This document shows positions 29,536 to 55,399 of a stretch of 64,000 bases of DNA, in pieces. The DNA comes from Antedon mediterranea (Eukaryota > Animalia > Echinodermata). Location: assembly GCF_964355755.1 (NCBI RefSeq), contig NC_092672.1:9300001-9364000 (forward strand), read 5' to 3'. Position 1 is the stretch's first letter. The number at the start of each line of letters is the position of its first letter. The notes below the pieces were generated by a model. That model was not told the origin of the DNA and did no database searches. It saw nothing but the letters and a program-made list of their open reading frames with translations. Both the position numbers and the translations under genes were made by a program.

Positions 29536-32500
29536 CTAATCATTATTTGAAAGCACTTGCAGCGAGTTCTTGATTGGTATAAATTTGTAATCACCATCAC
29601 CACGTTTTCTCATCTGTCGTTTGATTTCCCTTTCTTGTTTTCTGATTATTAAAAAAAAAAAGTAAAGATTTTATTAAAAGATTGACTGTAATTGAATGAA
29701 CTGTTGAATGTGTATGAAATAAAAAAAAAAAAAAATTCAACTGCCATTTGAAACTGATAGAAATCAGCTATTAAAATAATCATCAAATAAATGCATATTA
29801 CATTGAATTTAAAACGTTGGGGTCTACAGTAAAACCTCTAAAAGAAGCCCCCAGGCTTTTTTTTTTTAAGACTCTTGAATGGCTTCTTTTCGAGATTATA
29901 TTTGCAAACAAAATAGGGCGATTCTTTTTGAAATAAATTTTGTATTTTGTGAATTGCTAACTACAATAATATGATTTCTCTGCCAATTTTGAATATTTGC
30001 CAAGGAAGCAGACAAGAAGATAAAAGATTCCATGAAATGAAAGCACTGGAAACAAAAAACTGTAAAATAAATTTACATTATGAGGCTTGCTTGTTAAATA
30101 ATTAAGGGTTGCAAGATCCTATTAAACATGATCATACACATCCTCATCAGAAGGGCCATCAGTCAAACTGTTTGCTGTTTACAAATAAAACAAAAACAAA
30201 CCTCGCCACTGATTTAGCATGTTCCAATTCCATAACATGTGCTTGTTTTTCATATTCTTGTTGTGGACTAGCTTTCAGGTATCTTGCTATGAAACGTGAA
30301 ATTGGATGCTGAAATAGAAACGAAATAACATATCAGAAACTGAGCAAAAACAGACTGAGTGAAGTACTGTACTTGGCAAAATATATTAGGAAAAAACATT
30401 CACCAAACATTAAGGATGATAACTTACAAATTGTGGATGCTAACTTTTTTATTTTTATTTATTTGCATCTCATTAAAACATGCACAAACTAGAAAGCCAC
30501 TCCGAGAGTGCATACCTCCGCCTACTGTAAAATTCTCCTACATAAGATTTCTCCGGTAAAAAAAAAATATATATATATATTTGTGTGTGTCTTAATGCTG
30601 TTTGTGATTTAGGCTAATTTCACTACAAGCATGTGTATGCGAGTTTGGGGTAATGGTTATGTAACAAGCCTTTCAATTAACAATAGCTTCAGTTGACTAA
30701 CAATAGAACAGCAACGCAAAAATCAAACGAGTGAATTTGAAAAGAAAATAGGTTTTTTAAACTACTGGCATAAAAAAACGTGCACATTAAATCAAATTAT
30801 GTTTTAAAATTACAAATCACAAATTATAATTCTTGCCTCTTGTACAAAAATGAAGTTTTTTGGACAAGTAGTTCTCGAGAAAATGCAATTTCAGTATACT
30901 TGTTACTTTAAGACTGCTCGCTGGCTTTTGAAAAATTCTGTCCTATCTTTTAACACAAGCAGGTCTGAAAAGTATACTAAAAAGTGGTCCAGAATTGGGA
31001 CAATTGTCCAAAAATTTAATGGAATGGTCCTTGACCACATATCTATCTGTATATTCATTTTGGTAAAGATCTTGTAATTACTTTTTGAGTAATCCTGCTA
31101 ACAAACAAACAAACAAACACACGCTACCGATTACATATACCTCCTTGGCGGAGGTAAATAATGAAACAAGAGAATACAATTTAAATTTAAAAAGACAAAT
31201 ACAGAGATGCAGGATAGCCCATGAATGTCCCAATATCATGCCAATAAACAAAGTTAGTACTATACTTAGCAAACTTCAATTTGTTTTATCAATCAACACA
31301 GCAATTATTTATTTCACTCATAACATCTCATATTTGACATAACAGTAGTTCTAATTATAAAAAACATTTTTAAACACAAATACAGTCAATACCGGACTCT
31401 ACAAAAACCAGACTATTTTGAGGTTCAAAAAGTCCCAAATTCATTTTCCCTATTAAAAACACATTCTGAATACCAGAATTTCCAGAAAACAAGACATATA
31501 CACCAGCCCAAAGGTGTCCGGTAATGGGAAAGTGATTTGATTTGATTTAAGGTGATAATAATCGGTGGAGTTTGTAATATTACCTCTGGTAATTTTAAAC
31601 CTTTTTTAAAAAAGCTGTTTTGAACCAGCATGGATGGGCAGTGTTCAAGATCTCTTTTCACTTTGTTTTAAATATTTAAAAAAAAATTATTTTTAAATAT
31701 ACAACAACCTACTGGATAGTATTCCCAATGCTTTGGTACATATCCTTCTGGAATTTTAGAGAGTTCTGCTTCTCCTAAAAAAAAAAGTATGTTCAATTTG
31801 TTAAGCTGATGCATTATGGGACAAATTTTGGCACTCAGATTTTGACCATGGGAGCAGAGGACACTATTAGATGGCATACAATGCAGGTGGATTTCATATC
31901 GCATATTTGCACAATAATCAAAAACAATTTATTTGTATTATAGAGAATGCAAAGAGAGATGAAAACATGTATTTAGAGCTGGAGTATGAGGTACAAACTT
32001 ACCATAAAGAACATTAACATAAGTTATTACAGCCAGCGAGGGAACACCAGTTAGTGATGCATAGAACATCTATAGAAAAAAAAATTGTATTTATTTTTTT
32101 TCAATTTAACAATGAAAAAAAAAAATCAGGAATACAACAGGATACTTGCCTACTGGTATTGTCACATAATACTGTATGAAAGTCACCTTTGTGGGGGTGG
32201 AGGAGGGGGGAAGGAGGAGGTTGGCCCTCTCTGGTGTGGCCTTTTTCCTGTCGCCTTAGTAGTTCAATTCCAAAAACAGGTAGCACAAGTGCCTTTATAT
32301 CTGGAAGTAGCTGTTTGTATACAAGTGACTCCCAGGGATAATGGACACACAAATATAAGGCTGCTATCTCTCACAATTAGTTCACAATCAATGTTAAAGA
32401 CCCTACTAACCGCTCTTCGGAGAAATCTTCGATCAGTGTATGTACTTGCATGCGGAAAGAATTTCCTTGTAGCACCACCAGACATGCCCTTTATTTGTAC

Positions 32501-35373: not shown

Positions 35374-35483
35374 GTTGATTTCGGACTAGGCCTAGGATAG
35401 TTTTTTGTGTTTTGTGTGACGGGAGGCCGCGTATTCGACTAGTCTATCCTGGTAAACTACTGTTGTAGTGTACGTGTATGTAC

Positions 35484-35662
35484 GGGTCAGTCTAATTACC
35501 GAAAACAACCGAAAACAACCGAAAACAACCGAAAACAACCGAAAATAACCGAAAACAACCGAAAACAACCGGAAACAACCCTAAACAACCGAAAACAAAC
35601 CGAAAACAAACTAAAACAAATCTAATTACCGAAAACAAATTTTTTGTTATGTCGCCCTCTAT
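35484..35662 (+). repeat. Left TIR with subterminal (GAAAACAACC)n decamer array
   Basis: ggtcagtctaattacc, ~10 gaaaacaacc units, a second tctaattaccgaaaacaaat, then atgtcgccctctat. Confidence 0.9.
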
Positions 35663-38389
35663 ATTAATGATATATTGAAGTAGATAGCACTGCGTTATTA
35701 CACGTGAGCCTTGGTTTGGTTGTCAGGATCTGACGAGTATTCGGCACCAAAATCAGGGGCGGATCCAGGATTTTGAAATAGGGAGATGTGGGGGGGGGGG
35801 GGGAGCAAAGGTAAAGTTTTCCCCTATGACATGTTCATTTCAAACTGAGAAGCAAAAAGCAAAGCTAAATACGTCAGAGGTGTTTTTTTGTTTTATAGTA
35901 GGCCTATACCCCCAAGTACCCAACAAATAATCCACTGAAAATTAATTAAATAGTCTATTATTTATTAAACTTTGTTATTCGGTGGCCATATAACAGCTAG
36001 AAGGCCTACTAAGAAATTTGTAATGCCTGAGATGATCATTGTGGGTGGGTGGGTAAGTTTAGTTCTGATAAAATGATAAGAAGTATTGGAACCATGGTGG
36101 GGCCTGTGACGAAGCTAATTTACTCCCATGACACCCCTAGCTAGATGGCCGGAAATGGGTACTCTCGCGCGTAAAATTCATGAAAAATGGAACCTCATAA
36201 CTCATATCATTTGACGTTATTTTAATGTTGATTCTTGAATTTATTTGTTCACTAAACGAATAACTGTAATTTATTTGAATGCAAATAGAGAGAAAATGAT
36301 GCCTATGTGCTCACGCATGAATTTGTTCAAAGTACTTGTTTCATTAAAAAATCAATTTGAAAGAAAGAGTATAGCTAGCCTTCTGGTGTAATGCCCAATT
36401 CACCACTAGACTAGACAAGTATTGTAATACAAATTAAAATCAAGGTTAAAATAAAAAAGAAAAATATATAAACATTTATTAAATAAGTTAAATTCTTAAT
36501 TCCAGCAGTGTGCGTTTTAGAGAGGATTCATTTTAAGTCTTTTGCAGCGACAGCTTAATTTTGATTAAGTTGTTTAACAATTAAACGTAATGTTGTTTCC
36601 CCTGATTAATGAGTTAATGAATGTTTTTCTCCGTTGAAATATATATATATATATAATAGTCTGACAAAAATGATGACAGGAAGTGAAAACACAAACATGT
36701 TTCATTAACTTGTAAATCTTTATTAACCTTAGGCCTAATCATATTGAGAGAACATGAGAACACAACTCAAGTCTGTAACATCTTTTTAGTACTAAATTTC
36801 ATTTTGTTTTCGAGGTACAAACTCGATTCAAGATATCAGATGTATTATCAACATCTAGCCATGTTTGTTTAACTACAACAAACTAAATTTAAATAACATA
36901 GTGTAGTAAATAAATAACATTTTTCATGTTTTAAATAATACATGAGAACACAACTGAAAATCTGTAACATAATTCCTTTTTTATTTTTTTATTTTTTATT
37001 TTATTAAAATAAAAACCAACAGCGATAATTACCGCCACTAACAGGTTTGATACAAACAAAGCCAGGACTGTTTAAAGCACCTTGATTGGTCCTAACATTG
37101 GTCAAGGGCTTATCTCGTCTCTTGACCAGAGGAAAGGCATTAAATATAATGTTTTTGAGGTATACAAACTTGATTCAAGATATCAAATGTATTATCAACA
37201 TCTACCTAAATTTAATTTGTAAAAAAAAACACACAAAACATACTGAAATCTAATGTTTTTTTAGGTATAGGTTGAAACTCAATAAAATATCAATTTGTGA
37301 ATTTTTTTTTGAAAAAGAACAAACTTAATACACATGTTTGTTGAAGGCAAAGTGATTTATATTCTATGTGGAGAAAAAATACAAATTATCGAACAAAAGT
37401 TTAAAAGAAAAAAGAAATTTTATAACTTAATGCTAATTGCAAAACTGAATATTTACAACTGCTAAGTTGTCAATCTAAATCGGATACGATTGCATTGCTT
37501 TTAAAAATTGTTAGACAGAGAACGTATGTTTTTAGGAAGTAGTGTTATACAAACCAGGGAGTTGACTCCCTGTACAAACCATGGAGGACCTCCATGTACA
37601 AACCAATATAAACATATTTAAAATTGCAATAATAATCTGTAAATGCTATCTAGTAAATGCGTTATTAAATAATAAAAATTTAACACTGTGACAAATACTG
37701 GAGTAAATACATAAGTATATTTAAAATGCGACTTAACTTTAACAATAATTAATATAAAAAGATAGATTTAATAAGTGCAAACAGAATTAATAACACGAGA
37801 AACTAAGGTAGGCCTACCTTTAATAATAAACGTTTCATTGTTAAAGTAATAGTAAAACGTACGAGATGTGGAATTATTAAATGTGCGACATAAAACACAA
37901 CTGAGAACATTTAATCAAATTACTAGCTTTTGACACATTGATGGCGTGGATAATGGGGTTCTTCGACAAAATTTAGGGAAACCGATTGAATAAGCTTAAT
38001 GCACTTTTTATTTTTTTTTTTTGGTGTAAAATGGTTCAATAGATATCTCGGAACCTCTTCAATATGAAAACTACAATACAATTACATCACGACGTGTTAA
38101 ATAGAGTAAAAATTAGTTTGTGTAATTGTCGCCCTAATTAGAGGGGTTGGGTTGCATTTATTCAATTTATTCGAATAAATACGGTACTATTTTTTTCACA
38201 TTCAAATCTTTGTATTATACAAGTATATACTGATTTAATATAAATGATATTAAGTTAAAAACATATACAAAACAATATTATTATAAAAAGAGTGTAATTA
38301 TTGTAGATTATGAGTTTCAAATAAGTGTGAATATAAAATAGCCTAAGTAAAATCTTCACCATTAATTCTTTCAAGTCTTGATACAACTC

Positions 38390-40269
38390 TTATTTCTTAC
38401 TGAATGATGTGGTTTTTGCAACTCTGGTTCTTTTTTTTTGTCCTGGTTTTTTAGCACATTGTGGTGTTGCAGGAATAATTAATTTCCCGTCTTTAGATGT
38501 TGTTGTTTTTGCAACTGTTTTGTTCAGTGATATTTTCAAAAATCGTAAAACATATTTGTTTTTTTCATCTTCAGATTTCCCTATCCAAACAGAATTTGGC
38601 ACTGTATATTTCTTTAATCTAGGGATAACGTAAAAATTGCCTTGTCCGTGAATTGCACGCCGGGCGTCTGCATATTGTAATTTCGCAATTTTGTGTAGAA
38701 TTTGTACTAAATCTGGAAGCCTTTGTGGTTTCCAGTTAATGGATAGTTTTAGAATGTGATTTATGCTTTCGCAGTTGTTGTTTGTCCAACGGTCCGGAAT
38801 CACTCGGTCGGTAATATTGGGTCTGAAAACCTTTTCTTTTAAGGTTGGGCACAGTTTATCTCTAAAATAATTTCCAAATAGTGGAACTTGTTTTTGGAAA
38901 TCTATTTCCAATTGTAGTGAACGTTTGTCAAATTGTGAAATGTTTGTACTCCCAAGTAATCCGGACGGCGAAAAGATTTTGTTTAGTATTATTTGTCGGT
39001 ACTTATTATTTGCTCCTTGCTTTTCAAGCAAGTAACGAGATGCATTTTGCTTGATATGCCTTGTGCACAATATGTGTCGCGAATTGGGGAAAGAAAAGTT
39101 TAAAGCTTTCAAAATTGCCTTTTCTTCGTCGGAACCTATGACCATATTACAACTCATACCAACTTCGGAATTGTTTATGTCACTGTCAAGCTGACAACGC
39201 AAATGTGTAAAGAAATCAAGATACGTGCTGTACCGACCATCCCAGTGTAATAGCATCGGGCCGACAAAAATGGGATGATCATTTGCTTCTTTTTTAAGCA
39301 ATAGAGTGTTTTTAAAAACAGTAACCGTTAAATAGCAAGCCCCCAAGTTAAAAGTCCTATCGATCCCTAGTATACTTTGAGAAATATTGCCACAACAAAA
39401 CCTTCGTAAGTCATTAATTTGATTGTTTGTGTACAGAATTACACAAGGAGGCTGATTAGGTACAGCAAAGACTTTTTTTACAAATTCATGTTTTGTTAAT
39501 TCGGTTATTAAATTTTGTATATCATCGGCAACATTAGACCTACTACCTGTGGTGAGTTTTTTTGATCGGTTATATTTCAAATTTCTCAGTTGTTTCATAT
39601 CTCTGGGTGCGCTTTCGGGGTTAGAAAAAACCATATCTGCGTAAGTATCCCTGGGTTTGGAATGGACAAGTCTACATTCAGCATCACGTAGAACTTTCGG
39701 ATGAGTACGTACGTATTCTGTGTGTGTATGTCTGTCATTACCATGTGACGAAATGGTAAAAGGAAAATTGCCAATGTATTCAACTACTGCTTTAGGCCTA
39801 TTGAAGTTGTTCATTTTTTCGTTTTCGTTTTCTATCCACGACACTCGTTTTTTGTACCCTTTGTCTCGTTTTAATTTACAATAACACCTATGCAAAGTTA
39901 TAATATTAGTCGGTTGTGGTACGAGCGGGACCCAAGTACCGTTTTTTTTAATGCAAAATCTATCACACTTAAAGACAATGGTGATAAGCCTTCCAGCTAC
40001 TCTTGTGAACTGTGTCTTCGGAGTACTACTACTTGACGAGTCCCATACACCACAATCATCAGGAAAGAAGCTACGACCACCTCCAAAACGTTGTTGTACA
40101 TTGCCTTCATTGTTGACAACAAATAACATATTTTCTTTAACACCCTGCGGAATGTCTGGGAATGTTGCATTTTCTGATGTTTTCATGAGGATTTGGTATA
40201 GTTCAGACACCTGAACAAATTTTTTGTTTAACAACCGCTTTGTGAACCTTTTGCACGACATTCGGTCAC
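38390..40269 (-). CDS. MULE/Mutator-family DDE transposase (last coding exon, ~626 codons)
   Basis: Uninterrupted ORF with ILGIDRTFNLG (D1), VIGSDEEKAI (D2), HILCTRHIKQN (CxxH) and WTNNNCESINHILK (E). Acceptor cgttttAG|GTGACCGA at 40270/40269 is in the ORF frame at phase 1. Confidence 0.9.
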
Positions 40270-40689
40270 CTAAAACGAAGCATATTGAAAATTTCAAAAT
40301 ATTTAATAACAGTAATAGGCATGTTTCCTTTTTTGCGGGCACTGTTTATAAACTTTATTTCAATAGTTACTTTTGAGCAAATGTATGATGCATGCATTTT
40401 CTATTTTATATGTAATATTTTCACAATAGAATATTAGTATATTAGTAACATGTAATTGTACCTTAAGAACACGCTAAAACGTAGTCGATACATCTAAAGA
40501 TAGTTTTATTTGGAAAATAAAAGATATCAGCCGTCACAATTTCCCACAAAAATAAACAGAATTATTTTAATTTTAATTGCATATTGGAAATGATAATGAA
40601 TTTTGTTTTCGAATATTGTGTCACACAAAGATAATGTAGATTTTATTAATATAGTGTTTCAATTAGGTTGTGTAAATTAAATAACGAAC

Positions 40690-43600
40690 CTTGCTTTTCC
40701 AGATCAGAACTAAATGAATTGTTTATGTGACTGTATCGTGTTTCGGAATTACTTAGAGCAACTTCAGACTCGGACGAAGAAAATATAATTGGTGAATTAT
40801 CGCCGACGTCTTCAATCTTGACAAATGCAGTGTGTCCCCTCTGTTTTTTTCCTTTTTAAAAATATATAAATATTTGTCAAACCATAAAGCAATACATAAC
40901 TTACAAATGTATTCCCCTATATTTTCATGCTATTGCTGGGAGCTTTTCTTTTGCTTTTTAACGGTAAATAACATACAGTACATGATAAACAATCAGACAT
41001 TGAATCGTGTTCTATATCATGATACATTTTATCCGCATTTTATGCAGGTTGACCGCAGTACTATTGCAAATAACAGTACTTACAATGATAGGTGTATTTT
41101 AAACACTACCCTCTTATTAATAATGACACGATTTACTGTATTTGGTGATTTGAGTTTTCTATTTGAATAATGAAACTCGAATCTTGTTATTGAAATATCA
41201 TAAATTTAAGAAACTCAAATATCTGAGTTTTTTAGATCTAGGAAACTTAGATATATTTAAAACTTGTGTTTTCTAACACAGATCTTGTAATGCGAAGATC
41301 AAAACGAACAAAACACTTACTTTCATGTTGCATAGTTTTTGTGGTTTTCGAGTCGGGCGTTGTCATCGACGTGCTTTTTTCCTTTATGATTTCGCTGTGG
41401 GGGTTACAAATTGGGGATTGGAAAATCACACTATCGCCGGAAGGCCTTCCTGTTATAGGCGTATGCAATACATCATTACGATTAGGTAGTAACTTTTCAT
41501 TGGTGTCTGTATGATCACTGCTGTCGTTGTTGGAGTCAGAAAATTGATGTGATAATGAAATCAAATCAAAATCTATATCGGAAGATTGGCTAAAAAAAGA
41601 GGTAGCTGGAATGCCCTTAAAATTAGCCATCGTGGCATTTGTGTCTGTCTTTTTGCTGTTGTCGCTGTTTGGTGTGGAGCGTGGAGATATGGAAATCATA
41701 TCACGTTTATGGAAAGGTTGTCTATCAACAGAAGTGGAGGGAACGTCTGTAGGATCAACCTGTGGTGTTGAGTCAACGGAATCAGATGATATGGTTGCGA
41801 TTCGTTGCTTCTTCTTCGGTCGCCTTGTTTTCTTTTTCCGCACTATAAAATGTAGATTCATATCGATAAGTAAAAACACACAATGTTATATGATCTAGAT
41901 ACATTCAGATATCTCAGTTTCCTATAGACACCTACACTTATTGAATAAAACATTACTTTGTTAAAAAAAAAACAACAGATCAAAACACTACCTCCTGCAT
42001 GATTCGTTACTTTCGTGGTTTTTAAGTCGGGCGTTGTCATCGACATGGGTACGTTGTCGCTATTTGGTGTGAACAGTGGAGATATGGAAATCATATCCCG
42101 TTTATGGAAAGGTTGTGTATCAACAGAAGTGGAGGGAAAGTCTGTAGGATCAACTTCAGACTCGGACGAAGAAAATATAAATGGTGAATTATCGCCGACA
42201 TCTTCAATCTTGAAAAATACAGTGTGTCGCCTCTGGTGTTTTCCTTTTTGAAAATATATAAAATATTTGTCAAACCATAATGCAATGCATAACTATACAT
42301 GTATTCCCCTATATTTTCAGGCTATTGCTGGGAGCTTTTCCTTTGCTTTTTAAAGGTAAATAACATACATGATAAACAATCAGACATTGAATCGTGTTCT
42401 ATATCATGATATACATTTTAGCCGCATTTTATGCAGGTTGACCGCAGTACTATTTTTGGCAAATAACAATGAGTACTTACAATGATAGGTGTATTTTAAA
42501 CACTACCCTCTTATTAACAATGACACGACTTACTGTATTATGTGATTTGATTTTTATATTTGAAGCTTGAAACTCGGATCTTGTTATTTAAATTTCATAA
42601 ATATAGGAAACTCAAATATCTGAGTTTTTTAGATCTAGAAAACTTAGATATATCTAAAATTTGTGTTTTCTAACACAGATCTATTCTTGTAATGCGAAGA
42701 TCAAAACGAACAAAACACTTACCTTCATGTTGCATAGTTTTTGTGGTTTTCAAGTCGGGCGTTGTCATCGACGTGCTTCTTTCCTTTATGATTTCGCTGT
42801 GGGGGTTACAAATTGGGGATTGGAAAATCACACTATCAGAAGGCTTTCCTGTTATAGGCATATGCAATACATCATTACGATTAGGTAGTAACTTTTCATT
42901 GGTGTCTGCATGATCACTGCTGTCGTTGTTGGGGTCAGAAAATTGATGATCAAAATCTATATTGGAAGATTGGTTAAAAAAAGAGGTAGCTGGAATGCCC
43001 TCAAAATTAGCCATCGTGGCATTAGTGTCTGTCTTTTTGCCGTTGTCGCTGTTTGATGTGGAGAGTGGAGATATGGAAATCACATCACATTTATGGAAAG
43101 GTTGTCTATCAACAGAAGTGGAGAGAAAGTCTGAAGGATCAAGTGTTGAGTCAACGGAATCAGAAGATATGGTTACTGTGGTTGCGATTCGTTGCTTCTT
43201 CTTCGGTCGCCTTGTTTTCTTTTTCCGCACTATAAAAATGTAGATTCATATCGATAAGTACAAACACACAATTGTATTTGATGTAGATACAATCAGATAT
43301 CTCAGTTTTCTATAGACACCTACACTTATTAAATAAAACATGTCTTTGTTAAAAAAAAAAAAAACAGAACAAAACACTACCTCCTGCATGTTGCGTAGCT
43401 GTTGTAGTTTTCAAGTCGGGCGTTGTCATCGACAAGGGTACGTTGTCGCTGTTTGGTGTGGAGATTGGAGATATGGAAAACATATCACGTTTATGGAAAG
43501 GTTGTCTATCAACAGAAGTGGAGGGAAAGTCTGTAGGATCAAGTGTTGAGTCAACGGAATCAGACGATATGGTTGCTATGGTTGCGATTCGTTGCTTCTT

Positions 43601-45396
43601 CTTCGGTCGCCTTGTTTTCTTTTTTCGTACTATAAAAATGTAGATTCATATCGATAAGTACAAACACACAATGTTATTTGATCTAGATACAATCAGATAT
43701 CTCAGTTTCCTATAGACACCTACACTTATTGAATAAAACATTTATTTTTTACAAAAAAAAAAACAGAACAAAACACTACCTCCTGCATGTTGCGTATCTT
43801 TTGTGGTTTTCAAGTCGGGCGTTGTCATCGACATGGGTACGTTGTCGCTGTTGGGTGTGGACAGTGGAGATATGGAAATCATATCCCGTTTATGGAAAGG
43901 TTGTGTATCAACAGAAGTGGAGGGAAAGTCTGTAGGATCAACTTCAGACTCGGACGAAGAAAATATAAATGGTGAATTATCACCGACATCTTCAATCTTG
44001 AAAAATACAGTGTGTCGCCTCTGCTGTTTTCCTTTTTGAAAATATATAAAATATTTGTCAAACCATAATGCAATACATAACTACAAATGTATTCCCCTAT
44101 ATTTTCAGGCTATTGCTGGGAGCTTTTCTTTTGCCTTTTAAAGGTAAATAACATACATGATAAACAATCAGACATTGAACAGTGTTCTATATCATGTTAT
44201 ACATTTTAGGCGCATTTTATGCAGGTTGACCGCAGTACTATATTGCAAATAACAGTACTTACAATGATAGGTGTATTTTAAACACTACCCTCTTATTAAT
44301 AATGACACGATTTACTGTATTATGTGATTTGATTTTTATATTTGAAGATTGAAACTCGGATCTTGTTATTTAAATTTCATAATTCTAGGAAACTCAAATA
44401 TCTGAGTTTTTTAGATCTAGAAAACTTAGATATATCTAAAATTTGTGTTTTCTAACACAGATCTTGTAATGCGAAGATCAAAACGAACAAAACACTTACC
44501 TTCATGTTGCATAGTTTTTATGGTGCTTTTTTCCTTTATGATTTCGCTGTGGGGGTTACAAATTGGGGATTGGAAAATCACACTATCGGAAGGCTTTCCT
44601 GTTATAGGCATATGCAATACATCATTATGATTAGGTAGTAACTTTTCATTGGTGTCTGCATGATCATTGCTGTTCTTGTTGGGGTCAGAAAATGGGTGTG
44701 ATAATGAAATCAGATCAGAATCTATATTGGAAGATTGGTTAAAAAAAGAGGTAGCTGGATAGCCCTCTAAATTAGCCATCGTGGCATTTGTGTCTGTCTT
44801 TTTGCCGTTGTCGCTGTTTGATGTGGAGAGTGGAGATATGGAAATCATATCACGTTTATGGAAAGGTTGTCTATCAACAGAAGTGGAGGGAAAGTCTGTA
44901 GGATCAAGTGTTGAGTCAACGGAATCAGATGATATGGTTACTGTGGTTGCGATTCGTTGCTTCTTCTTCGGTCGCCTTGTTTTCTTTTTTCGCACTATAA
45001 AAATGTAGATTCATATCGATAAGTACAAACACACAATTGTATTTGATGTAGATACAATCAGATATCTCAGTTTTCTATAGACGCCTACACTTATTAAATA
45101 AAACATGTCTTTGTTAAAAAAAAAATAACAGAACAAAACACTACCTCTTGCATGTTGCGTATCTGTTGTGGTTTTCAAGTCGGGCGTTGTCATCGACATG
45201 GGTACGTTGTCGCTGTTGGGCGTGGACAGTGGAGATAGGGAAATCATATCCCGTTTATGGCAAGGTTGTGTATCAACAGAAGTGGAGGGAAAGTCTGTAG
45301 GATCAACCTGTGGTGTTGAGTCAACGGAATCAGATGATATGGGTACTATAGTTGCGATTCGTTCTTTCATTTTCGGTCGCCTTTTCTTTTTTTGAA
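40690..45396 (-). CDS. Eight tandemly amplified phase-1/phase-1 exons encoding Ser/Thr/Asp/Pro-rich low-complexity repeats with basic NLS-like heads
   Basis: Exons 45145-45396 (252 nt), 44500-44994 (495), 43780-44031 (252), 43381-43629 (249), 42723-43229 (507), 41992-42243 (252), 41321-41842 (522), 40690-40851 (162). All are multiples of 3, AG..GT bounded and open. Three acceptors (..aaaaAG) are weak. Confidence 0.7.
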
Positions 45397-45606
45397 CTAT
45401 AAAAATTTAGATTTATCTCGGTCAATAATATAAACACACCTCTGAGATAACTTCGTTACAATAAAAAATAACAATGAACCAATCTATTGCGTACACTACG
45501 TACGGATAAGTTTTGTGTATTCTTATCCTAAAATTTTATTTTTTTTAAATTTGTACAAATAAATAAGAAACCATTTGTCTAAATTAGTAGAGTAGGCCTA
45601 ATTTAC

Positions 45607-46612
45607 CTTTCCTTTTGATTACTTTCTTGTGACCAATGTCGTCATACGAAGTAGATGACAAGCAAGATGACAATATTTCGGGTAAACACACTCTCTCATC
45701 TATTAAAGAACTGTCCAATAACGGGACAAAGTGGTTAGGAATCCACGTACCCTTTGAAGAAGGTAATAGTGTACTAGTCCACATAATAAAAATCGGATGT
45801 CTGTCAGCTGTTTCTTCGCAAGGATAAAAACTTCTATTCAATATGCGATGTGCATTGTCAGTAACGCCATTATAAGGAGGATACACAGAAATAATTTCTT
45901 GCCCTATAACACTAGACAACGCCTGTATCTGCCAAGCTGAAGAATAACCGCTTTCACGACTACAATCTGAACAAGCGAGATTGTAATCAGGACTGGTTAA
46001 AGCAATTTTTGAATGTTTGTGCAGTTCCTTGTAGAATGTTTCTTTTTCTACCATATCAACAAATGTTCTTACGCGAAGTTCAGTAGCAATGTTTTCATTG
46101 CCAGTCAAAGCAACAGCTACGGCATTAAACAAGCAGCTACCGTCACCAGCGACAGATACAGGGATTAAACGCCCACCTCCACATTTGTTCATTATACTTG
46201 TAGAAACAGCATCGATGACATACTGTTGAGATATCGTAAACGGGGGTTTACTAAAGCGATGATTACGTAGAAATAAACGTTCACTTTGCGCTATGTCAAG
46301 TATATTGTAATTGTTTTTGGTAGCTGAATCAATACGCTCTAATGAGGCCAAAAAATCAAAACTGCCATTAGGGCTACAGCATTCGGAACAAGTGAAATGC
46401 AAAGGAGAGTTACCTAAGCTATGCAAGTTTGCTTTAGTTAAGTTTTCGCACAATATGTGGAACCAGCGTAAGCAATAATCACAAAATATACTGTCATTGT
46501 TGCACGCAAACTTACAAACACCACAAAAGTATTTCCCCGTTTTTTTCTTGTCACAATCAAAACAAGTTAAACAAGGTCTAGTTTTTTTGTGCTGCCTTTT
46601 TTGTCTGTACAT
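45607..46612 (-). CDS. PHD finger plus vertnin-like OTU cysteine protease domain (first coding exon of the transposon gene)
   Basis: C4HC3 pattern CGVC..CDYC..WFHILC..CSEC. OTU motifs VAGDGSCLFNAVAVAL, ELRVR, WQIQALSSVIGQEIISVYP, IFIMWT, WIPNHFVPLL. Acceptor tttcAG|AATATG at 46616; donor AAAG|GTAAAT at 45606. Confidence 0.85.
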
Positions 46613-48059
46613 ATTCTGAAAGTAAAATAAGAACAATTGGTTTGAAAGCAATTGTAAGGTCCTATCATTAGCAAGTACACATTATATTTATCAGATTATA
46701 TTTACACTTTTGCAGCATTTACTATTTATAGAATAAAAATGTTATCTGCACTAAATAAGCCAGTCGGTAAATCTTTATGGAATTCATTTAAAAGCAATAT
46801 GTTATATAACATTGAATGTGAAACATATAACAATAAAGAAAAAAGTATAGAAAAATGGGTAGCTTTAAGAAATAAGATTATGATAATATAATTTCTAATT
46901 TGATACGATTAACAGAAAAAGAATTACAGTGATACGGGTTACTGGTGGTACTGAGCTATTATTGTTTATTTTTATCATGTATATAAATATATTGTATAAT
47001 CCGGGTTGTAAAATGAAAACAAACAAATGAAAATGTGTGAACTATTTTAAAACGGGATAGATGATAATGATGATCCTGTCAAGTGTATAACAAAATATAA
47101 GAAAATTAATGAAAAAAGGAGTAATACAGAATTCATATATGTAAAAATGTTACTTATGAACTGTAACGACATTTACAAGTTAAATAATACGATTTTATGT
47201 AATATGAGATAATATGAATGTGAATAAAAGTGGTGTTTGCGCCACAAAAGAGAAAAAGAAAAAAAAACAAGTACACAAATCAAATTGCTTAACTTAGGCT
47301 TTATTGTTTTTCAATTCTTTATATCATTATTAGTCAAAATGATTAGTTTGATGATTTTTGGGTAAAAATTAAACTGCGAATGCGTATACGCGAAAAATTG
47401 CGATTCGCACAAATAAATAACTTGAATACCGTTGTAGATATTTAAATTAAAGCATTCTTTATACACTGAATAATGATTAACTATTAAAAAATGAACTGTA
47501 AATAATTATGAATGACTTACCACTGTGTGCTCGTCAGAACCGAACGGTTAAGTAAAAATAGACTGAACTGTTGTACAACTGAACTGAACTGTACAAAAAT
47601 AAAGATTTAGATGGATTTTCTCCAGTGAGAATTCAAGAATAAAGGTATGATGTGTTTTTTTATCGCTTTAAATAGTGGAAAGAAACTTCAGCAGAACCAC
47701 GCTTTTTACATAGTTGCATGAAGGTCTTTTTTATTGGCTTATTTTCTGAAGCCTAACACCGTCAAAGTTCTAGACCAATCGCAATGCACATTTTGCCAAA
47801 GCTGCTCTCATATTTGGGACCATCTTTAAGAAATCGGAAACCAACAGGCTGCTTTGATAATAACCGCACACGGAACCGGTGCTATCGCCATATCAAACAC
47901 TATTTTGACAAAACCGTCCGACTCCGATAAAATGCCAGTTATTCCACTGACATATTGCAAAATAGGTTACCGTCAAGAATAAACATGTAAGGAACTCCTT
48001 TGTATGATCTTGATAAAATTACTAAGGTTCTTCGAACACAGAGACCAGAGACTAAGAGA

Positions 48060-49105
48060 TAGGTCGAAACGGGTGTCTCAAAAACAGAGACCAGAGACCC
48101 GAGACCCAGGGTCTCTGTTTTCGAGAAAATCTGGAAAACAGAGACCCCCACTAAAACGTCTAAATAATACGTTATATAGGGGGTCTCTGTTTTCCAGAAA
48201 AACTCGAAAACAGATACCCCCATTAAAACGTCTCAATATTAAGTCAATATTACGTTACATAGGGGGTCTCTGTTTTCCAGAAAAACTCGAAAACAGATAC
48301 CCCCATTAAAACTTCTTAATATTAAGTCAATATTACGTTATATAGGGGGTCTCAGTTTTCGAGTTTTTCTAGAAAACAGAGACCTCCACTAAAACGTTTC
48401 AATATTAAGTCAATATTACGTTATATAGGGGTCTCTGTTTTCGAGAAAAACTCGAAAACAGAGACCCCCACTAAAACGTCTCAATATTAGGTCAATATTA
48501 CGTTATATAGGGGGTCCCCACTAAAACGTCTCAAAATCACAGAATGACGTATCAGTAATAAACGGTAACTGATATGCCGATATCAAAGAACATGCCGCAA
48601 CGATAAGAAGATTGATGAATTCTTGAACGCGTGTGAAGAGACTGTCATTTTGGAATACAAGGTCGACGTCCTAGAAGTTAAGTAAGATGTATAAATGCAT
48701 GTTAGAAGCTAAAAAGCGGGAGATTATTTCAAAAACTGACACTAGTTTCGTAACCTTTATTAACAAGCATAAAAGATAATAACGTACAATGCAATAACAA
48801 AATGATATGAGGTCAGACTTTGAGGCAGACTGGAGGATGAAGACAAATATATTGTGTTGGGCGAACCTTTAAAAAGAAATGAATTAAAAAAATAAAAATA
48901 AATTGATAAATAAATAAACATAAATTCACGGTTTTTGCGATAAAAGTTGGGTTTTAATAATTTATGACCAAGCTCGTTGGTGGGTATTTGCAACACTCTC
49001 AATAAACAGGGATTATATTAGGGGGTCTCGGGAAATCTCAAAAAAAGAGACCCCCAATATAATGAGACGTTTTAGTGGGGGTCTCTGTTTTCGAGTTTTT
49101 CTCCA
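48060..49105. repeat. Array of ~83-bp units built from inverted GAGACCCC/GGGGTCTC motifs (main block 48060-48535, outlier 49020-49105)
   Basis: aaaacagagacccccactaaaacgtctcaatattaagtcaatattacgttatatagggggtctctgttttc repeated ~5 times; each unit is self-complementary at its ends. Confidence 0.8.
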
Positions 49106-50170
49106 TTAGTATTTGTTTTATTATAAGGTTGTTGACATTATAATGTGTCTATTGTATATTTTAATGGTATTATACATATGCCTACATCATTATAATATAG
49201 CTCATCCCCACCCTCCTACCTCCTCCATTAGGCCTATTCCCTGCCCCACCGTTCGATAGAGATTAAATATAAATATATGAAAATTCACTAAAATTAGTTG
49301 TGAAATTAGGTTCTTTTTTTCGTAAAAAAATTAGATTTATGAATAACTTATACAAATTCTCAAGTGTCAACAATAAATCGTCTGTGTTTTTAAACAGTGA
49401 ATAGTAGCCGATAAATTCACGTGCATCCTTCACAATAACAATACAAAATATAACAATATACATACAGAAAATTATAAAGGCAAAAAACAACTAACAACCC
49501 CTAAAATATCCTCTACCCTCCGCAACACCCCAACCAATTTTAATCGATACATAGGGACATAGGGTAGATCATTACTGTACAAAAATGAATAAAGAAATAT
49601 AGTGAAATTGTATTAAATAAAATCAACAGAAAACACAGCTTATTAATAATACAAACGATTTGTTTTGTAATTCAATTCTCCATTCATCTATCATTATAGA
49701 GTTAAGTTTCTTAAAATTTTAGACATTTAAAAGGAGAGAGGAGAAAATATATTTGGATTCACAATTACACTTCCATCTTTAGTATTTCATACAAAGAGCG
49801 TTATGGATCTCAGTTAATTGGAGACCAACCAGAGGTGCTTTTTTTAAGGTATAACGCGCCATTTGGAGCTTGATACGCTTTAGCTTATCTTTATCTATTC
49901 TATACTTAAAGAGCACCAAATAAATGAACAACCATAGTTGATAGAACTATCGATCTCCACAGAGTATCTCCATAATATACTAGTTCAAGTTACTGATACC
50001 GTATCTATAAGAAACTGAAATACACAGCATGCTTTATACGTGTGTGATTGCATTTGATTGTGGGAATAGACATTTCTCAAATGTTGTGGTCTTCATGACG
50101 TGCTCTTTTGAAACATCATATTCATACTGGTTCAATAATTTTGTTAACGCTAGTTTTTGCAGGTTATTTA

Positions 50171-50262
50171 TCCTTTTGATACGATAGATCACGACATCCT
50201 GATCAGTCGTATGCAGAAGGAATTTGGCATTACTGGCTTTTCTTTAAATTGGGTAGATAGAA
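50171..50262 (+). pseudogene. Non-LTR retrotransposon reverse-transcriptase fragment (second copy at ~52275-52370)
   Basis: Translates FDTIDHDILISRMQKEFGITGFSLNW, similar to the CR1/L2 RT motif AFDTVDHxILLxRL..GIxG..LxW. IGVFLDLSK is also readable at ~52408-52434. Confidence 0.7.
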
Positions 50263-51185
50263 TATTGATGGATCCATTCTTCTTCCTTGGTAGTTTTAAT
50301 ATTTGTCTCAGTCGAGCCTTGTATTTCAGGACCTGGTACCCAAGCTATAGTTTTCCAGAGGTTCTCCCATGTTGAAAATCTCAGACTGACTTATTTTCAT
50401 TACTATCTATGGGTGCTGCCTCATCGATAGTTAGTGTCATCAACTACAGAAACGCTGGCCCTTAATTATAGCATCTAAAAAAGGGTGTAATTCGCTCTCG
50501 CATACTTTTTGTGTTGTAGTTTGTAACATATTTCATGCCTTCTAAGTTCATCTAACCAATATTCCATTCGGATTGGATGGTGCGAGGTATTGCATCATCC
50601 CAGCCAAGTTCTTGACGGCATCAATTCTGTAAAATAAGTTAGTAAATTAATTCGATGAGTTGCATAGGCCTGTCAGTTATGGCCTTAAGACAGATTTCCG
50701 AGGAACTACGTAGAATTGTTTGCCGTGATTAATTACAATTTTTGTATGAAACGTATATACAGGTTCGAATCCCGCCAGAGACATTTTTTCATACAACTAA
50801 AAAATACGGAACTTTCGCCAATGACGCGTTTATGAGATCATGTTCCGATGAGCACTGTAATTTGACAGTATTTATTTATATATAATTTACACAGTGCTTC
50901 GCAATACAATTGTATAAATATAAAAACACAACAGGCATAGAAATAAATTCCAAACCGCCCGGTGATACACTGAAAATTATTTAATTAATTTTTGAAATGA
51001 TAAAGATGAGGAAATCTGTGAGAATGAGAAAAAGTCGACCCAACCGAGACTCGAACTCGGACCGTCTGCTTGATATGCAGTTGCCCTAACCATTAGACCA
51101 TTTCATGGTATTGTTCTTTAACTCGATTGGATAACGACCCTTTAACATTCTCGGCGTGGTACGGTTGGAACACAACTAGTCCTCA

Positions 51186-51304
<119 letters not shown>

Positions 51305-51696
51305 CATCAAAGTAAAAAAAAATGTATAATACAGCGCAACACATAATCCTTGATGTACATAAAATAAAGGTAACAACAATATCGCCAATGCATTTAATGT
51401 AAAAATATTATATCGTCATTCACCTCTGGAAAGTAACCTGGCATGGTTATGACGAATTTAATGAACATGCAATCGTAAAAGTTTGTAAACAAATCAACGT
51501 ATAGTTAGAAATAAATACCCAAATAGATATTATGTTTTTCTCCTGTCATTTGTTTAAATCGGGCTATATACAAAATATTTGTACTGTGTATTTGACCTCC
51601 ATTTTTAAATGTAGCAATATATCCGTTTTGCCCATTTTTATCCTAATACATTTTAAATAAAAATAAAAGTTTTAAAACACAGAATCGATTGAATTT

Positions 51697-51990
51697 ATAT
51701 TTATACTGGGTAACCTCTTCAGTCAAAGACTGGTCTCCCAGAGGACCCAGTTGGTGATCAGTGGCTGTAATGTACTAATACACCGGGGTAACCCCCTACT
51801 CGTCTCGTACTAGGTTCTTTAAAGTGCACACGAGCGAGATGTGTACACTGGACCTACGGTTTATAGTCCTTATCCGAGAAGACTCGTTCTAACCACCAGA
51901 ACCACGGAGTGAGTGAGCCTCGAACCCCTGCCGATGTTATGGCTACGTAATTACTGTTCCACTGTCGTAACCGCTCGGCCACTCACTCCC
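51697..51990 (-). mobile_element. tRNA-headed SINE with a Deu/Nin-like central domain
   Basis: Minus strand: head GGAGTGAGTGGCCGAGCGGTTA..GGTTCGAGGCTCACTCACTCC, then TCGGATAAGGACTATAAACCGTAGGTCC..GCACTTTAAAGAACC..GAGTAGGGGGTTACCCCGGTGT, resembling the DeuSINE core. A second near-identical copy is at 59062-59660. Confidence 0.72.
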
Positions 51991-53305
51991 TACGAATGTC
52001 TACTAATGTTGATTTGCGAAATTATTGGTTTAGGTTCCCGACCAAATCAACATTAAACTCAGATTTTCGCCCAGTTTCTAACCTTCATACGTTAGGTAAG
52101 ATTATTCAGTATCTAACCATTTCCTGTCTACTTTATGAAACATATCAGTCGGTATAAATAATATAATAAATCTCATAGTACGGAAACTGCTCTATCGCGT
52201 TAAAAGTGATATATTATGTTGATGAAACATGATAAAGGGTGATATATTATGCTAGTTTTGGCAGTTTTTTTTTTATCCTTTTGATACGATAGATCACGAC
52301 ATCCTGATCAGTCGTATGCAGAATGAATTTGGCATTACTGGCTTTTCTTTATTAATTGGGTAGATAGAAATAAAATTACTTCAGCATTACATAAAAGGGA
52401 TTTTTTTATTGGCGTCTTTCTTGATTTGTCAAAGTCAGTCAAATACCACAATACTTCTATCACAATTAATTGATTGGTTTAAAAGTTATTTATTATTTAC
52501 CTCCGCCAAGGAGGTATCTCTAATCGATCGCGTGTGTCTGTTTATTTGATTGTCTGTCTGTTTGTTAGCAGAATTACTCAAAAAAGTTATTGCAAGAAAT
52601 ATGTGGCCAAGGACCACTCCATTACATTTGGAGGCAATCCGGACTACGGTCCCAATTTTTGACCACTTTTTAGTATTATTTTCAGACCTGCTAATTTACG
52701 ATTTGCACCGAATAGAGGTGTTTTTCACAAACTGTTTTACATATAAACACAATATACACAAATAAACGTCGTAGAAGTGGTGTATTATTGTCATGCGGTA
52801 AGTACATTTGAAATCGCTGAAATTATACTATGTATTCGAGAACCATCCCTAGTTGTTAAAATTGTTATAAAATACTAAAAAATATTTTAGAAGTGATTAT
52901 ATCGAATTACAGTATTTAAAAATGCTTATATATTAAAATGCTTATATATTATGCGTGGTGCGTGTTAGTGTTAGGCTACTATTATGTAGTTTCTTTTATA
53001 TTATATGTAGGAATACTTTAACTTTCCAACTTGTATCTTTAAAACCTTATTTCATGTTTTTTTCTATGATAATGTTTTATTTTTCAAAGGGTCTTACGAC
53101 TACAGACAATTCCTTGTCTCCGTAAGATTCATGTAACATATATATTAAATATCTAACATATTGTAGATTCTGTAAGTAAATGCACGGTGTTATCATTGAG
53201 TTTGTACGATATTGAGTTAAATTTTGTGCACACTTCCATTTCGTATGGTCTCTATCTCCTTGGCTTTGCGCGCGCGGTCTTGTTGGCTTTAGAAACACCT
53301 ATCAA

Positions 53306-53524
53306 TAGAGGGCGACATTTAAAAAATATACTGTAGAAATTTGTTTGGCGTGCGAGGTCAATATAGTAGCTGCATCAAATTTGTTTTCGGTATTTAGATA
53401 TTGTTATTTTGTTTTCGGTTTGTTTTCGGTTGTTTTCGGTTGTTTATGGTTGTTTTCAGTTGTTTATGGTTGTTTTCGGTTGTTTTCGGTTGTTTTCGGT
53501 TGTTTTCGGTAATTAGACTGACCG
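53306..53524 (-). repeat. Right TIR with subterminal (GGTTGTTTTC)n array
   Basis: Reverse complement of the left TIR, including atagagggcgacat, with ~50-60 bp of extra sequence. Confidence 0.9.
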
Positions 53525-53595
53525 GTATGTACAGTGCATTTTTTTCATCCACAAAAATACACCAGTCGAACTTTGCATGCTTACGTCAAACTTAA

Positions 53596-54303
53596 AGCTC
53601 AGGTACAGGCATGAATTTTACATATAATATTTGGTTAATTGTACATAAATCAAATATTTGTCGAAAAAACATGAATTTCCCTTAATATAGTCAAATACAA
53701 AATTTGGCAAAATTCTTCCATAAAAACCAGGAAGACTTTTTTTAAGTAGTTAGGTAGTTAACCTAATGTAATAACATGTCTGGTGACTCCCTAGACGGTG
53801 AAAAAAGATGGTGGATATACGGTGGATACTTTTTGCTATAGCATGAAAATAAAAATCTGAAGTTGAATAAAAATATCAGAAATGTAATATTCAAGTTATA
53901 TTATCTATATTTAGTCATCTGATAACATTTTTTACCACACCATTTATTTTTCATAGCTTTTTAAAATGCCTCTCTATTTACAAAATGTGTGTACAAAAGA
54001 ATAGAGATTTTACTGTGTAATTTGAACTATCCCCCCCCCCCCCACTGATAAGAAAGGGCTTATTTTCAACAAGCTCGTGTAACACAAATAAAATCGATCA
54101 AATATAGATCGATAATTATTAGAATGTCTGATCAATAGACATTTTTTGCCCGCACCTTGCCTTTAAAGCTCAGGTACAGGCATGAATTTTAAATACTAGA
54201 TGGTAGATGGTAAATCTAAAAAATTATGAAACATAGGGGAAACTATAGATAAAAAATTATTGGAATGTATGATCAATAGAAATTTTTTGCCCGCACCTGG
54301 CCT
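53596..54303. mobile_element. Two head-to-tail TTAA-flanked non-autonomous elements (Kolobok-like)
   Basis: TTAA|AGCTCAGGTACAGGC..GCCCGCACCTTGCCT|TTAA|AGCTCAGGTACAGGC..GCCCGCACCTGGCCT|TTAA, with imperfect TIRs starting AG. Confidence 0.6.
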
Positions 54304-55173: not shown

Positions 55174-55399
55174 AGTCCAGATCCCTATGTATTTTCGTGT
55201 GCAGATCATGGGGAAAGTGTAAACATTGTGTTTTATGAATATTTGAATCATGCTGACCTCAAGGTCAAAGATGAATTTTAGAAATTTGACAACATGGGTT
55301 TTTATAACCAGCATGATTCAAATATTCATAAAACACAATGTTTACACTTTCCCCATGATCTGCACACAAAGGCACTTTTTTGACATAGGGATCTGGACT
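55174..55399. repeat. Long inverted repeat / foldback MITE (~80-bp arms, ~50-bp loop)
   Basis: agtccagatccctatgt..gtgcagatcatggggaaagtgtaaacattgtgttttatgaatatttgaatcatgctg pairs with cagcatgattcaaatattcataaaacacaatgtttacactttccccatgatctgcac..acatagggatctggact. Confidence 0.85.

What the first reader, a model, noticed from the sequence alone, without database searches (positions are those of the whole stretch)
35484..53524. 18-kb Mutator-like giant transposon carrying a PHD finger and OTU protease alongside its transposase
Seen: matched tandem-repeat-rich TIRs 18 kb apart, an exact 8-bp flanking duplication GTATGTAC, an intact DDE/CxxH MULE transposase ORF, and a co-oriented PHD + OTU-like ORF. 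Established: MULEs make ~8-11 bp TSDs; some animal MULE lineages (Foldback/Rehavkus/Phantom types) have repeat-rich TIRs and accessory protease or PHD domains; PHD fingers read histone H3 tails; OTU domains are deubiquitinases. Inference: a recently mobile, unusually large autonomous element with a histone reader and a ubiquitin eraser, which could target open chromatin or counter host silencing. It may be an undescribed family.
Basis: partly seen in the sequence, partly recalled or inferred. Interest (0 to 1): 0.88.

Follow-up and report, generated by a model that had tools for sequence, protein, structure and literature searches.

The report
Mobile Mutator transposon, PHD-OTU-transposase fusion
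This 18-kb jumping gene is present in some copies of this animal's chromosome and absent from others, sits about 110 bases ahead of the start codon of the respiratory gene NDUFB5, and likely makes one long spliced enzyme that joins a predicted histone-reading finger and a predicted ubiquitin-removing protease to the cutting domain, a layout shared with many unnamed marine-invertebrate relatives and partly catalogued in Hydra.

Summary
The element is real and moved recently. TIRs (35484-35642, 53377-53524), the 8-bp TSD and an intact MULE DDE frame are confirmed. A contig from another sample joins the two flanks across a single GTATGTAC, which is the empty site. The insertion lies 103-110 nt upstream of the ATG of NDUFB5, likely in its 5' UTR. 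(1) PHD-OTU and transposase are likely one gene, not two ORFs: ten phase-compatible exons give a stop-free 1,858-aa frame, and 18 of 20 long PHD/OTU homologues carry this transposase in the same chain. Splicing was not seen in RNA. (2) The family is not unknown: the DDE core matches Hydra MuDR-6_HM (MULE group 14, listed with an OTU domain and no TIR). The 18 kb comes from a tandemly duplicated linker-exon block (4.7 kb) and nested repeats, not extra genes; relatives' proteins are about 950-1,100 aa. New here: complete ends, polymorphism, a Pygopus-like PHD, an amplified linker, and a subclade with Ulp1 in place of OTU. Chromatin targeting and deubiquitination are untested. This scan noted the same fusion earlier in other genomes.

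The parts
35476..35483 (+). left target-site duplication GTATGTAC
   Evidence: single copy in the empty allele
35484..35642 (+). left TIR, about 12 copies of a 10-bp unit behind a unique tip
38390..40269 (-). last exon: MULE transposase (beta-rich N-terminal domain, then D302, D379, C400-x-x-H403, E499 counted from 40264; codons at about 39361, 39130, 38770)
   Evidence: acceptor predicted
40690..45396 (-). 4.7-kb tandemly duplicated block holding eight predicted phase-1 linker exons (45396-45145, 44994-44500, 44031-43780, 43629-43381, 43229-42723, 42243-41992, 41842-41321, 40851-40690); Ser/Thr-rich, several begin with a basic NLS-like run; 897 aa if all are used
   Evidence: splicing predicted, not seen
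45607..46615 (-). first coding exon: ATG at 46612, C4HC3 PHD finger (about 46531-46379), OTU domain (Cys codon about 46135, His codon about 45733), phase-1 donor at 45607
46693..47230 (.). very high-copy repeat nested upstream of the ATG, in the presumed first intron
   Evidence: depth jump and loose ends
47521..47588 (-). possible non-coding first exon (splice-site scores only)
   Evidence: weak
48109..49103 (.). 83-bp palindromic tandem array (5 copies, 48109-48516) and an inverted partial copy at 49041-49103; nested repeat
50149..52847 (.). filler of nested repeats: duplicated 119-bp piece (50149-50262, 52251-52369), tRNA-like piece 51042-51102, (TA)58 at 51187-51302, pieces shared with DNA outside the element (51684-51991, 52489-52847)
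   Evidence: no Pfam family in the 7 element frames scanned
53377..53524 (-). right TIR
53525..53532 (+). right target-site duplication GTATGTAC
35301..35475 (-). host NDUFB5 exon 1, downstream part: 5' leader, ATG at 35373, donor after 35301
   Evidence: later exons hit Pfam NDUF_B5
53533..53619 (-). likely upstream part of the NDUFB5 leader, joined directly to the TSD in the empty allele and displaced 18 kb in this allele
   Evidence: 87 loose letters, 30 shown, all matching 53533-53562

Best explanation
This is a recently inserted, polymorphic Mutator-like cut-and-paste transposon related to Hydra MuDR-6_HM, and it likely encodes one spliced protein, PHD-OTU-linker-transposase, in which the PHD would tether the enzyme to H3K4-methylated promoter nucleosomes and the OTU domain would strip ubiquitin from the enzyme or from chromatin at the cut site. 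Shown: ends, TSD, empty allele, other junctions with different flanks, intact catalytic residues in both enzymes, and the fused layout in many relatives. Inferred: splicing into one mRNA in this species (about 0.85), autonomy (0.75), an active deubiquitinase (0.75), PHD binding to H3K4me2/3 (0.55), and that this binding biases insertion to promoters (0.35-0.4). The transposase would bind the 10-bp TIR units, excise the 18 kb and leave 8-bp duplications, and also move many shorter elements that share the ends.
For: Empty site: X5 contig (292 nt, depth 111) matches 35301-35483 and continues with the right flank from 53533. Other insertions: 20, 20 and 16 listed contigs in X1, X3 and X4 (one sample) leave the TIR tip into unlike flanks, agreement 0.46-0.56. 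One 1,948-2,084-nt contig with 0 differences covers most of the transposase at depth 140/992/135, against 28-38/210/33 for the flank; this fits several near-identical copies but is no copy number. Fusion: P0001 is a single 1,102-aa ORF 38% identical to the PHD-OTU exon and 39% to the transposase; 43 of 153 proteins held then, and 18 of the 20 of 800 aa or more, hit both parts; 24 of 28 metagenome loci with 900 nt or more upstream of the transposase hold the OTU there. Gene model: all 8 linker exons are multiples of 3, phase 1, with GT-AG ends and no stop, total 1,858 aa; between duplicated exons 11 of 13 gaps are multiples of 3 (the other two sum to 15), between duplicated introns 0 of 21 (pairs not independent). 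Catalysis: OTU Cys 36 of 40, His 39 of 40, D/N before the Cys 39 of 40; model pLDDT 92, OTUD3 Z 13.4 (135 aligned, rmsd 3.3), VCPIP1 Z 13.1. DDE D 56, D 60, E 60 of 60; ISCth4 Z 13.0, 227 aligned, rmsd 5.0. PHD: best structural match Drosophila Pygo, Z 8.8, rmsd 2.0, 31% identity; cage Trp 36 of 40 and an aromatic two residues before Cys1 33 of 40.
Against: No spliced join of the element's exons appeared in any run, and an X5 contig reads through the predicted transposase acceptor unspliced (39973-40368); X5 may hold DNA. I chose the linker exon ends from motifs shared by the repeats; none of their 8 acceptors and only 3 of their 8 donors passed my score cut-off. dN/dS between exon copies is not clearly under 1 (dN/dS 0.041/0.050, 0.060/0.029, 0.048/0.029, 0.029/0.105, 0.083/0.161), so only the frame looks constrained. 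The PHD lacks the Met/Tyr that lines the cage in ING2 or BPTF (recalled; Ser here, mostly Cys/Ser/Thr/Ala). 22 of 47 near-full transposase hits had under 150 aa before the transposase; these may be truncated gene calls or true stand-alone forms. The promoter insertion is one case, and maize Mu favours open chromatin and gene 5' ends too (PMC2774946, abstract and headings), without a PHD as I recall. No listed contig bridges the filled junction itself (only 32 of 1,008 pieces were shown).
Confidence: 0.6

Rival explanations
1. Same fused gene, but the head acts on the enzyme itself rather than on target choice: the OTU removes degradative ubiquitin from the transposase or tunes repair signalling at the break, and the PHD is a structural partner of the OTU or binds an unmodified tail or another protein.
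For: A starred subclade carries a Ulp1-like protease without the PHD in the same N-terminal slot (P0171, P0179, P0180, P0183), and 18 of 32 near-full OTU-bearing relatives show no PHD (many may be truncated), so the protease is the constant part. PMC2836005 proposes a repair-related role for such proteases. The model packs PHD and OTU as one unit (pTM 0.90).
Against: The Pygo-like aromatic positions of the PHD are conserved in 33 and 36 of 40 diverged relatives, which fits a kept ligand pocket. The one mapped insertion is at a housekeeping 5' end.
Confidence: 0.3
2. The OTU fold is a self-processing protease that cuts the polyprotein in the linker and frees the transposase.
For: Suggested for Medicago MULE-OTU fusions in PMC1702500 (passage read). 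The linker is long and low in complexity.
Against: Nearest folds are deubiquitinases. The slot is also filled by a Ulp1-type isopeptidase, which points to ubiquitin-like tags. Linkers vary from 30 to 237 aa in relatives, and I did not look for a conserved cut site.
Confidence: 0.07
3. In this copy PHD-OTU and the transposase are two separate genes, as the first reader drew them; the block between them is non-coding duplication.
For: The PHD-OTU frame has its own stop 20 nt past the predicted donor, the transposase exon has an in-frame ATG just after its acceptor, and no splice was seen.
Against: Fusion is the rule in intact relatives; donor and acceptor phases match with or without the linker exons (direct join 961 aa plus stop); indels in the duplicated exons keep the frame while intron indels do not.
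Confidence: 0.1
4. The 18 kb is not one mobile unit: two short TIR elements of a common family happen to flank a transposase gene, or the join is an assembly error.
Against: The empty allele removes exactly the 18,041 bp plus one TSD copy; non-repeat parts of 37.6-48.0 kb mostly share one depth; no other copy of the TIR tip lies in the window.
Confidence: 0.03

Closest known systems
MuDR-6_HM (Hydra; MULE group 14 in PMC6446971; DDE sequence in the supplement of PMC13359780)
   Same: DDE core alike by eye: 15 of 20 residues around the first Asp, 18 of 32 from the second Asp through CxxH, 11 of 13 around the Glu. It is the only place in that supplement's held text with the motif DRTFN. Listed with one ORF and an OTU domain.
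   Different: Listed at 5,227 bp with no TIR, no TSD and no zinc finger. Here: 150-160-bp repeat-built TIRs, an 8-bp TSD, a PHD, introns, a linker up to about 900 aa and 18 kb. I could not see the Hydra full-length protein, so its OTU position and any PHD are unknown.
Rehavkus (MULE outgroup; PMC6446971)
   Same: PHD finger in the transposase, repeats near the ends, up to 10.7 kb.
   Different: 9-bp TSD; its DDE motifs, seen in the PMC13359780 alignment, do not resemble this one; no OTU listed.
Ginger1 transposons and Ulp1-bearing MuDR elements (PMC2836005); Medicago MULE-OTU (PMC1702500); OTU in Helentrons (PMC6431247)
   Same: A transposase fused to an OTU or Ulp1 protease, sometimes with a PHD; function proposed, not tested in the passages read.
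   Different: In Ginger1 and Medicago the domains are C-terminal; here PHD and OTU lead the protein. Different transposase cores.
Maize Mu/MuDR (PMC2774946) and ISCth4 (IS256 family, PDB 6xg8)
   Same: Same superfamily; Mu inserts in open chromatin and gene 5' ends; ISCth4 is the nearest solved fold.
   Different: Mu has 215-bp TIRs and 9-bp TSDs; neither is known to me to carry a reader or a protease (recalled).
RAG2 PHD of RAG recombinase (works-like comparison)
   Same: An H3K4me3-reading PHD coupled to a DDE enzyme (recalled; search listing only).
   Different: Separate subunit, Transib-derived core, a non-canonical PHD; no protease.

Membership tests
Mutator/MULE superfamily | DDE triad with C/D-x-x-H after the second Asp | tested here: met
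   D302, D379, C400-x-x-H403, E499; kept in 56, 60, 59/58 and 60 of 60 rows; Pfam MULE E 5e-6, 0.3 bit under the cut-off
Mutator/MULE superfamily | Transposase fold nearest to IS256/Mutator | tested here: met
   ISCth4 first by Foldseek (E 1.5e-7) and VIA-align (Z 13.0 against 10.3 for Hermes)
Mutator/MULE superfamily | Long TIRs and an 8-11-bp TSD made on insertion | tested here: met
   TIRs 159/148 bp; 8-bp TSD, single in the empty allele
MULE group 14 (MuDR-6_HM) | DDE core sequence of the group | tested here: met
   By-eye block identities 15/20, 18/32, 11/13; DRTFN and FFTHL each occur once in the held supplement, both in this entry
MULE group 14 (MuDR-6_HM) | Placement in one clade with MuDR-6_HM in a tree | not testable with these tools
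   The Hydra sequence is held only as paper text and could not be put into the tree
MULE group 14 (MuDR-6_HM) | OTU domain in the element | tested here: met
   group listing
MULE group 14 (MuDR-6_HM) | One ORF for OTU and transposase | tested here: inconclusive
   Open 1,858-aa spliced model and fused relatives, but no spliced read
Rehavkus | 9-bp TSD and Rehavkus-type DDE core | tested here: not met
   8-bp TSD; motifs unlike the Rehavkus rows shown (by eye, 2 of 6 rows)
Phantom | Phantom-clade transposase, often with FLYWCH | tested here: inconclusive
   No FLYWCH hit up to E 1, but PMC6446971 lists Phantoms with and without it; no tree with Phantom references
OTU deubiquitinases | OTU fold with Cys-His-Asp/Asn catalytic residues | tested here: met
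OTU deubiquitinases | Cleaves ubiquitin or a ubiquitin-like tag | not testable with these tools
   needs an enzyme assay
H3K4me-reading PHD fingers (Pygopus type) | C4HC3 zinc ligands | tested here: met
   eight ligands kept in 37-40 of 40 rows
H3K4me-reading PHD fingers (Pygopus type) | Aromatic cage that binds methyl-lysine 4 | tested here: inconclusive
   Trp 36/40 and N-terminal aromatic 33/40 kept; the Met/Tyr position of ING2/BPTF (recalled) is not; best matches Pps and Pygo; binding not tested

The most novel reading that the evidence does not exclude
A large, still active and unnamed clade of animal Mutator elements (group 14 widened to molluscs, crustaceans, a ribbon worm and this host) picks promoter targets with its own Pygopus-like H3K4me reader and rewrites ubiquitin marks on arrival with a protease on the same chain. 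The protease slot is exchangeable between a deubiquitinase (OTU) and a deSUMOylase fold (Ulp1), and this copy has lengthened its tether several-fold by exon duplication and has landed in the leader of a respiratory housekeeping gene.
Probability: 0.3. Interest if true: 0.75.

Novelty: new variant of a known kind. Interest (0 to 1): 0.5.

Why it matters
Ubiquitin and SUMO proteases and PHD fingers recur on unrelated transposases, and their purpose has been proposed but, in the papers I read, not tested. This is an intact, polymorphic element with defined ends, both active sites whole and many sibling insertions in one genome. That makes two questions testable at once: whether a transposase-borne PHD steers insertion to promoters, and what the protease acts on. 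It also supplies TIRs and a TSD for a MULE group listed without them, shows that the group is wide, and marks a segregating insertion in the leader of NDUFB5 that could act as a natural loss-of-function or promoter-swap allele.

Tried and rejected
No whole genome is held, so copies, TSD lengths and the insertion spectrum could not be counted. No RNA holder was listed by record; X5 is only guessed to be RNA. No joint among the element's exons was listed; parts without cover say nothing. A 9-bp TSD was rejected: it needs a mismatch, and the empty allele reads as one 8-mer; the consensus letter next to the tip also fits a family-wide mismatched last base (one sample). Viral contigs: 30 pattern matches, 0 relatives. 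Inverted repeats in 14 of 80 metagenome loci gave no complete TIR-bounded relative; contigs are short. ACCGAAA-type units occur in 2 of 80 loci (L076, L077, near-identical), around a broken transposase piece and without a clear TSD; a lead only. Extra genes in the non-coding parts: 7 element frames gave no Pfam family and Rfam gave one weak tRNA piece. The transposase N-terminal domain gave only middling matches (SSR4 Z 7.7, GCM Z 6.5, NAC Z 6.0), which fit a WRKY-GCM1-like fold but do not show it. The atlas search with P0040 gave only hits under 0.9. The tree is a quick tree of 59 of 237 proteins plus the window, with an open backbone and no root: it shows the Ulp1 rows in one starred clade with 3 short rows, not the direction of the swap. 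A likeness of this OTU to vertebrate vertnin is recalled and raised in earlier notes; I had no vertnin sequence, and two paper searches showed no such link in their listings. No complex prediction was run. Not in print, as far as reach: a description of an N-terminal PHD-OTU MULE with TIRs. Repbase Reports and the FASTA supplements of PMC6446971 were not visible and may already describe it.
Full report
Observation. The element runs 35484-53524 (18,041 bp) between two copies of GTATGTAC. The arms align at 86% over 168 columns, the outer 56 bases (from 35485 and 53523) are identical, and both are arrays of a 10-bp unit. A chance 8-mer duplication at two random window positions has a rate of 0.0006. 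The TIR tip occurs only twice in the window. The two long minus-strand frames hit Pfam MULE, and PHD plus OTU, at E about 5e-6 to 5e-5.

Mobility. No genome was held, so I used public runs (5 runs, 2 samples, 2 studies; I laid 4 of the 5). In run X5, from the other sample, one 292-nt contig matches 35301-35483 and then continues with 87 letters, of which the 30 shown match 53533-53562 exactly. This is the empty site with one copy of the 8-mer, and it fixes the TSD at 8 bp. In X1, X3 and X4 (one sample, perhaps the source of the assembly) 20, 20 and 16 listed contigs leave the TIR tip into unlike flanks; 105 further loose-end rows were not shown. TIR bins are hundreds of times deeper than the flank, partly because the unit is repeated. 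The transposase lies on one contig of about 2 kb with no differing letter, at depth 140, 992 and 135 against 28-38, 210 and 33 for the flank. Depth here is no copy number, but the ratio of about 4-5 fits several near-identical copies. In X3 and X4 a flank contig also runs on into non-TIR letters after 35481, which suggests that this sample carries an allele without the element; the letters were not shown and the two-base offset is unexplained. No listed piece bridges the filled junction (32 of 1,008 pieces shown).

Insertion site. The same X5 contig jumps at 35301 to letters found at 32472-32499, directly behind an AG acceptor. That side holds 28 letters, just under the tool's bar of 31, but the join is in frame from an ATG at 35373, and downstream exons hit Pfam NDUF_B5 at E 7e-9 and 8e-11. 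So the element sits 103-110 nt upstream of the NDUFB5 start codon, likely inside the 5' UTR, in the same orientation as the gene, and pushes the upstream leader 18 kb away. The effect on expression is unknown.

One gene, not two. The PHD-OTU exon ends in a phase-1 donor (45607) and the transposase exon starts at a phase-1 acceptor (40269). Between them lies a block duplicated in units of 1.4-2 kb at about 90% identity, which holds eight candidate exons of 252, 495, 252, 249, 507, 252, 522 and 162 nt. All are multiples of 3 with AG and GT ends, and the ten exons give 1,858 aa without a stop. Indels between exon copies keep the frame (11 of 13 gaps; the other two sum to 15), those between intron copies do not (0 of 21); the pairs are not independent. 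Against this: I picked the exon ends from shared motifs, most score weakly, dN/dS is not clearly under 1, and no spliced join was seen; an X5 contig reads through the 40269 acceptor. Relatives settle the layout. P0001 is one 1,102-aa ORF matching both parts. The PHD-OTU query found 1,903 clusters at E 0.001 or better, of which 150 were listed; 43 of the 153 proteins then held also hit the transposase, including 18 of 20 of 800 aa or more. In metagenome loci found with the transposase alone, 24 of 28 with room upstream hold the OTU. Of 47 near-full hits from the transposase searches, 20 have the OTU head, 4 a Ulp1-like head, 1 a linker only, and 22 under 150 aa of head. Linkers in relatives are 30-237 aa, against about 900 here if all exons are used.

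Size. The gene spans 8.2 kb (4.7 kb of it the duplicated block), with 2.7 kb downstream and 6.8 kb upstream. The rest is nested repeats, a tRNA-like piece and a (TA)58 run. I found no further gene. The element is large through accumulation, yet still moved as one piece.

Domains. The PHD-OTU model is confident (pLDDT 92, pTM 0.90, 40 sequences). OTU enzymes fill the top of both fold searches (OTUD3 Z 13.4, VCPIP1 13.1, TRABID 12.7), and the catalytic Cys, His and flanking Asp/Asn are kept. The PHD is nearest to Pygopus by structure (Z 8.8, rmsd 2.0) and to Pps and Pygo by sequence; two aromatic cage positions are kept, a third (as I recall it from ING2 and BPTF) is not. The transposase model (pLDDT 82, 17 sequences) is nearest to ISCth4, with an intact D-D-CxxH-E set.

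Relatives. Named hits are uncharacterised or MULE-domain proteins of abalone, mussels, oysters, clam, sea slug, whelk, a ribbon worm, mantis shrimp and crab. Four proteins with a Ulp1-like head (Pfam E 5.5e-6, 1.1e-3, 8.8e-3; the fourth by eye) fall in one starred clade of an unrooted quick tree. The same OTU type also heads FLYWCH-MULE proteins and one tyrosine-recombinase protein. Earlier notes of this scan call the host a feather star; I did not test that.

What is known. PMC6446971 (passages and supplement rows) lists MuDR-6_HM of Hydra as group 14, 5,227 bp, one ORF, OTU, no TIR, and Rehavkus with a PHD and 9-bp TSD. The Hydra DDE sequence in the supplement of PMC13359780 (passages and supplement passages) matches this one by eye in all three catalytic blocks; the Rehavkus rows do not. 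PMC2836005 and PMC1702500 (passages) describe C-terminal OTU, Ulp1 and PHD fusions on Ginger1 and MULE transposases and propose roles in repair or polyprotein processing. PMC6431247 (passages) notes 16-20-kb CACTA families and lists no giant animal MULE in the passages seen. PMC2774946 (abstract and headings) reports Mu insertion in open chromatin and at gene 5' ends. My searches found no description of this N-terminal PHD-OTU form with TIRs, but Repbase Reports were not visible. This scan had already noted the fusion in three other genomes.

Verdict. A real, young, polymorphic Mutator-like element related to MuDR-6_HM, likely with one PHD-OTU-transposase gene. I commit to tethering at H3K4-methylated promoters plus local deubiquitination as the likeliest role of the head; the anatomy is shown, the role is inferred. 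New variant of a known kind; interest 0.5.

Noticed in passing
window 30165-35373 (minus strand): Host gene NDUFB5 (complex I subunit); exon 1 encodes what looks like a mitochondrial presequence. The element sits just upstream.
   Followed up: yes
window 35481-35483: In the DNA runs X1, X3 and X4 the flank contigs end or turn to non-TIR letters after 35481, two bases before the end of the TSD, whereas the X5 empty allele matches to 35483. It could be a polymorphism or an excision footprint; the letters were not shown.
   Followed up: partly
proteins P0171, P0179, P0180, P0183: Same transposase family with an N-terminal Ulp1-like protease in place of PHD-OTU; one starred clade.
   Followed up: partly
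proteins P0068, P0004, P0056: The same OTU type is fused to a tyrosine recombinase (P0068) and to FLYWCH-MULE transposases (P0004, P0056), so the module moves between element classes.
   Followed up: partly
L077:4219-5063 and L076: Inverted repeats with ACCGAAA units, like the window's TIR unit, around a broken fragment of a related transposase; may show a conserved binding motif.
   Followed up: partly
window 50149-50262 and 52251-52440: Duplicated piece whose translation resembles a non-LTR reverse transcriptase motif (recalled); no Pfam hit.
   Followed up: partly
window 56900-63500 (minus strand): Host gene with at least two PH-domain exons (63029-63484, 60571-60813) and a coiled, lysine-rich tail; it ends a few kb upstream of the element's right end.
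   Followed up: partly
window 400-3579 (minus strand): Exons of a pyridoxal-dependent decarboxylase gene (aromatic amino acid or histidine decarboxylase type).
   Followed up: partly
window 27565-28677, 14793-17075, 8971-9410, 34768-34964: Tandem arrays: a perfect 15-bp unit in 74 copies, a 29-bp unit in 79 copies, a 30-bp unit in 15 copies, a 16-bp unit in 13 copies.
   Followed up: no
window 55194-55370: 62-bp inverted repeat at 98% with a 53-nt loop, likely a small MITE.
   Followed up: no
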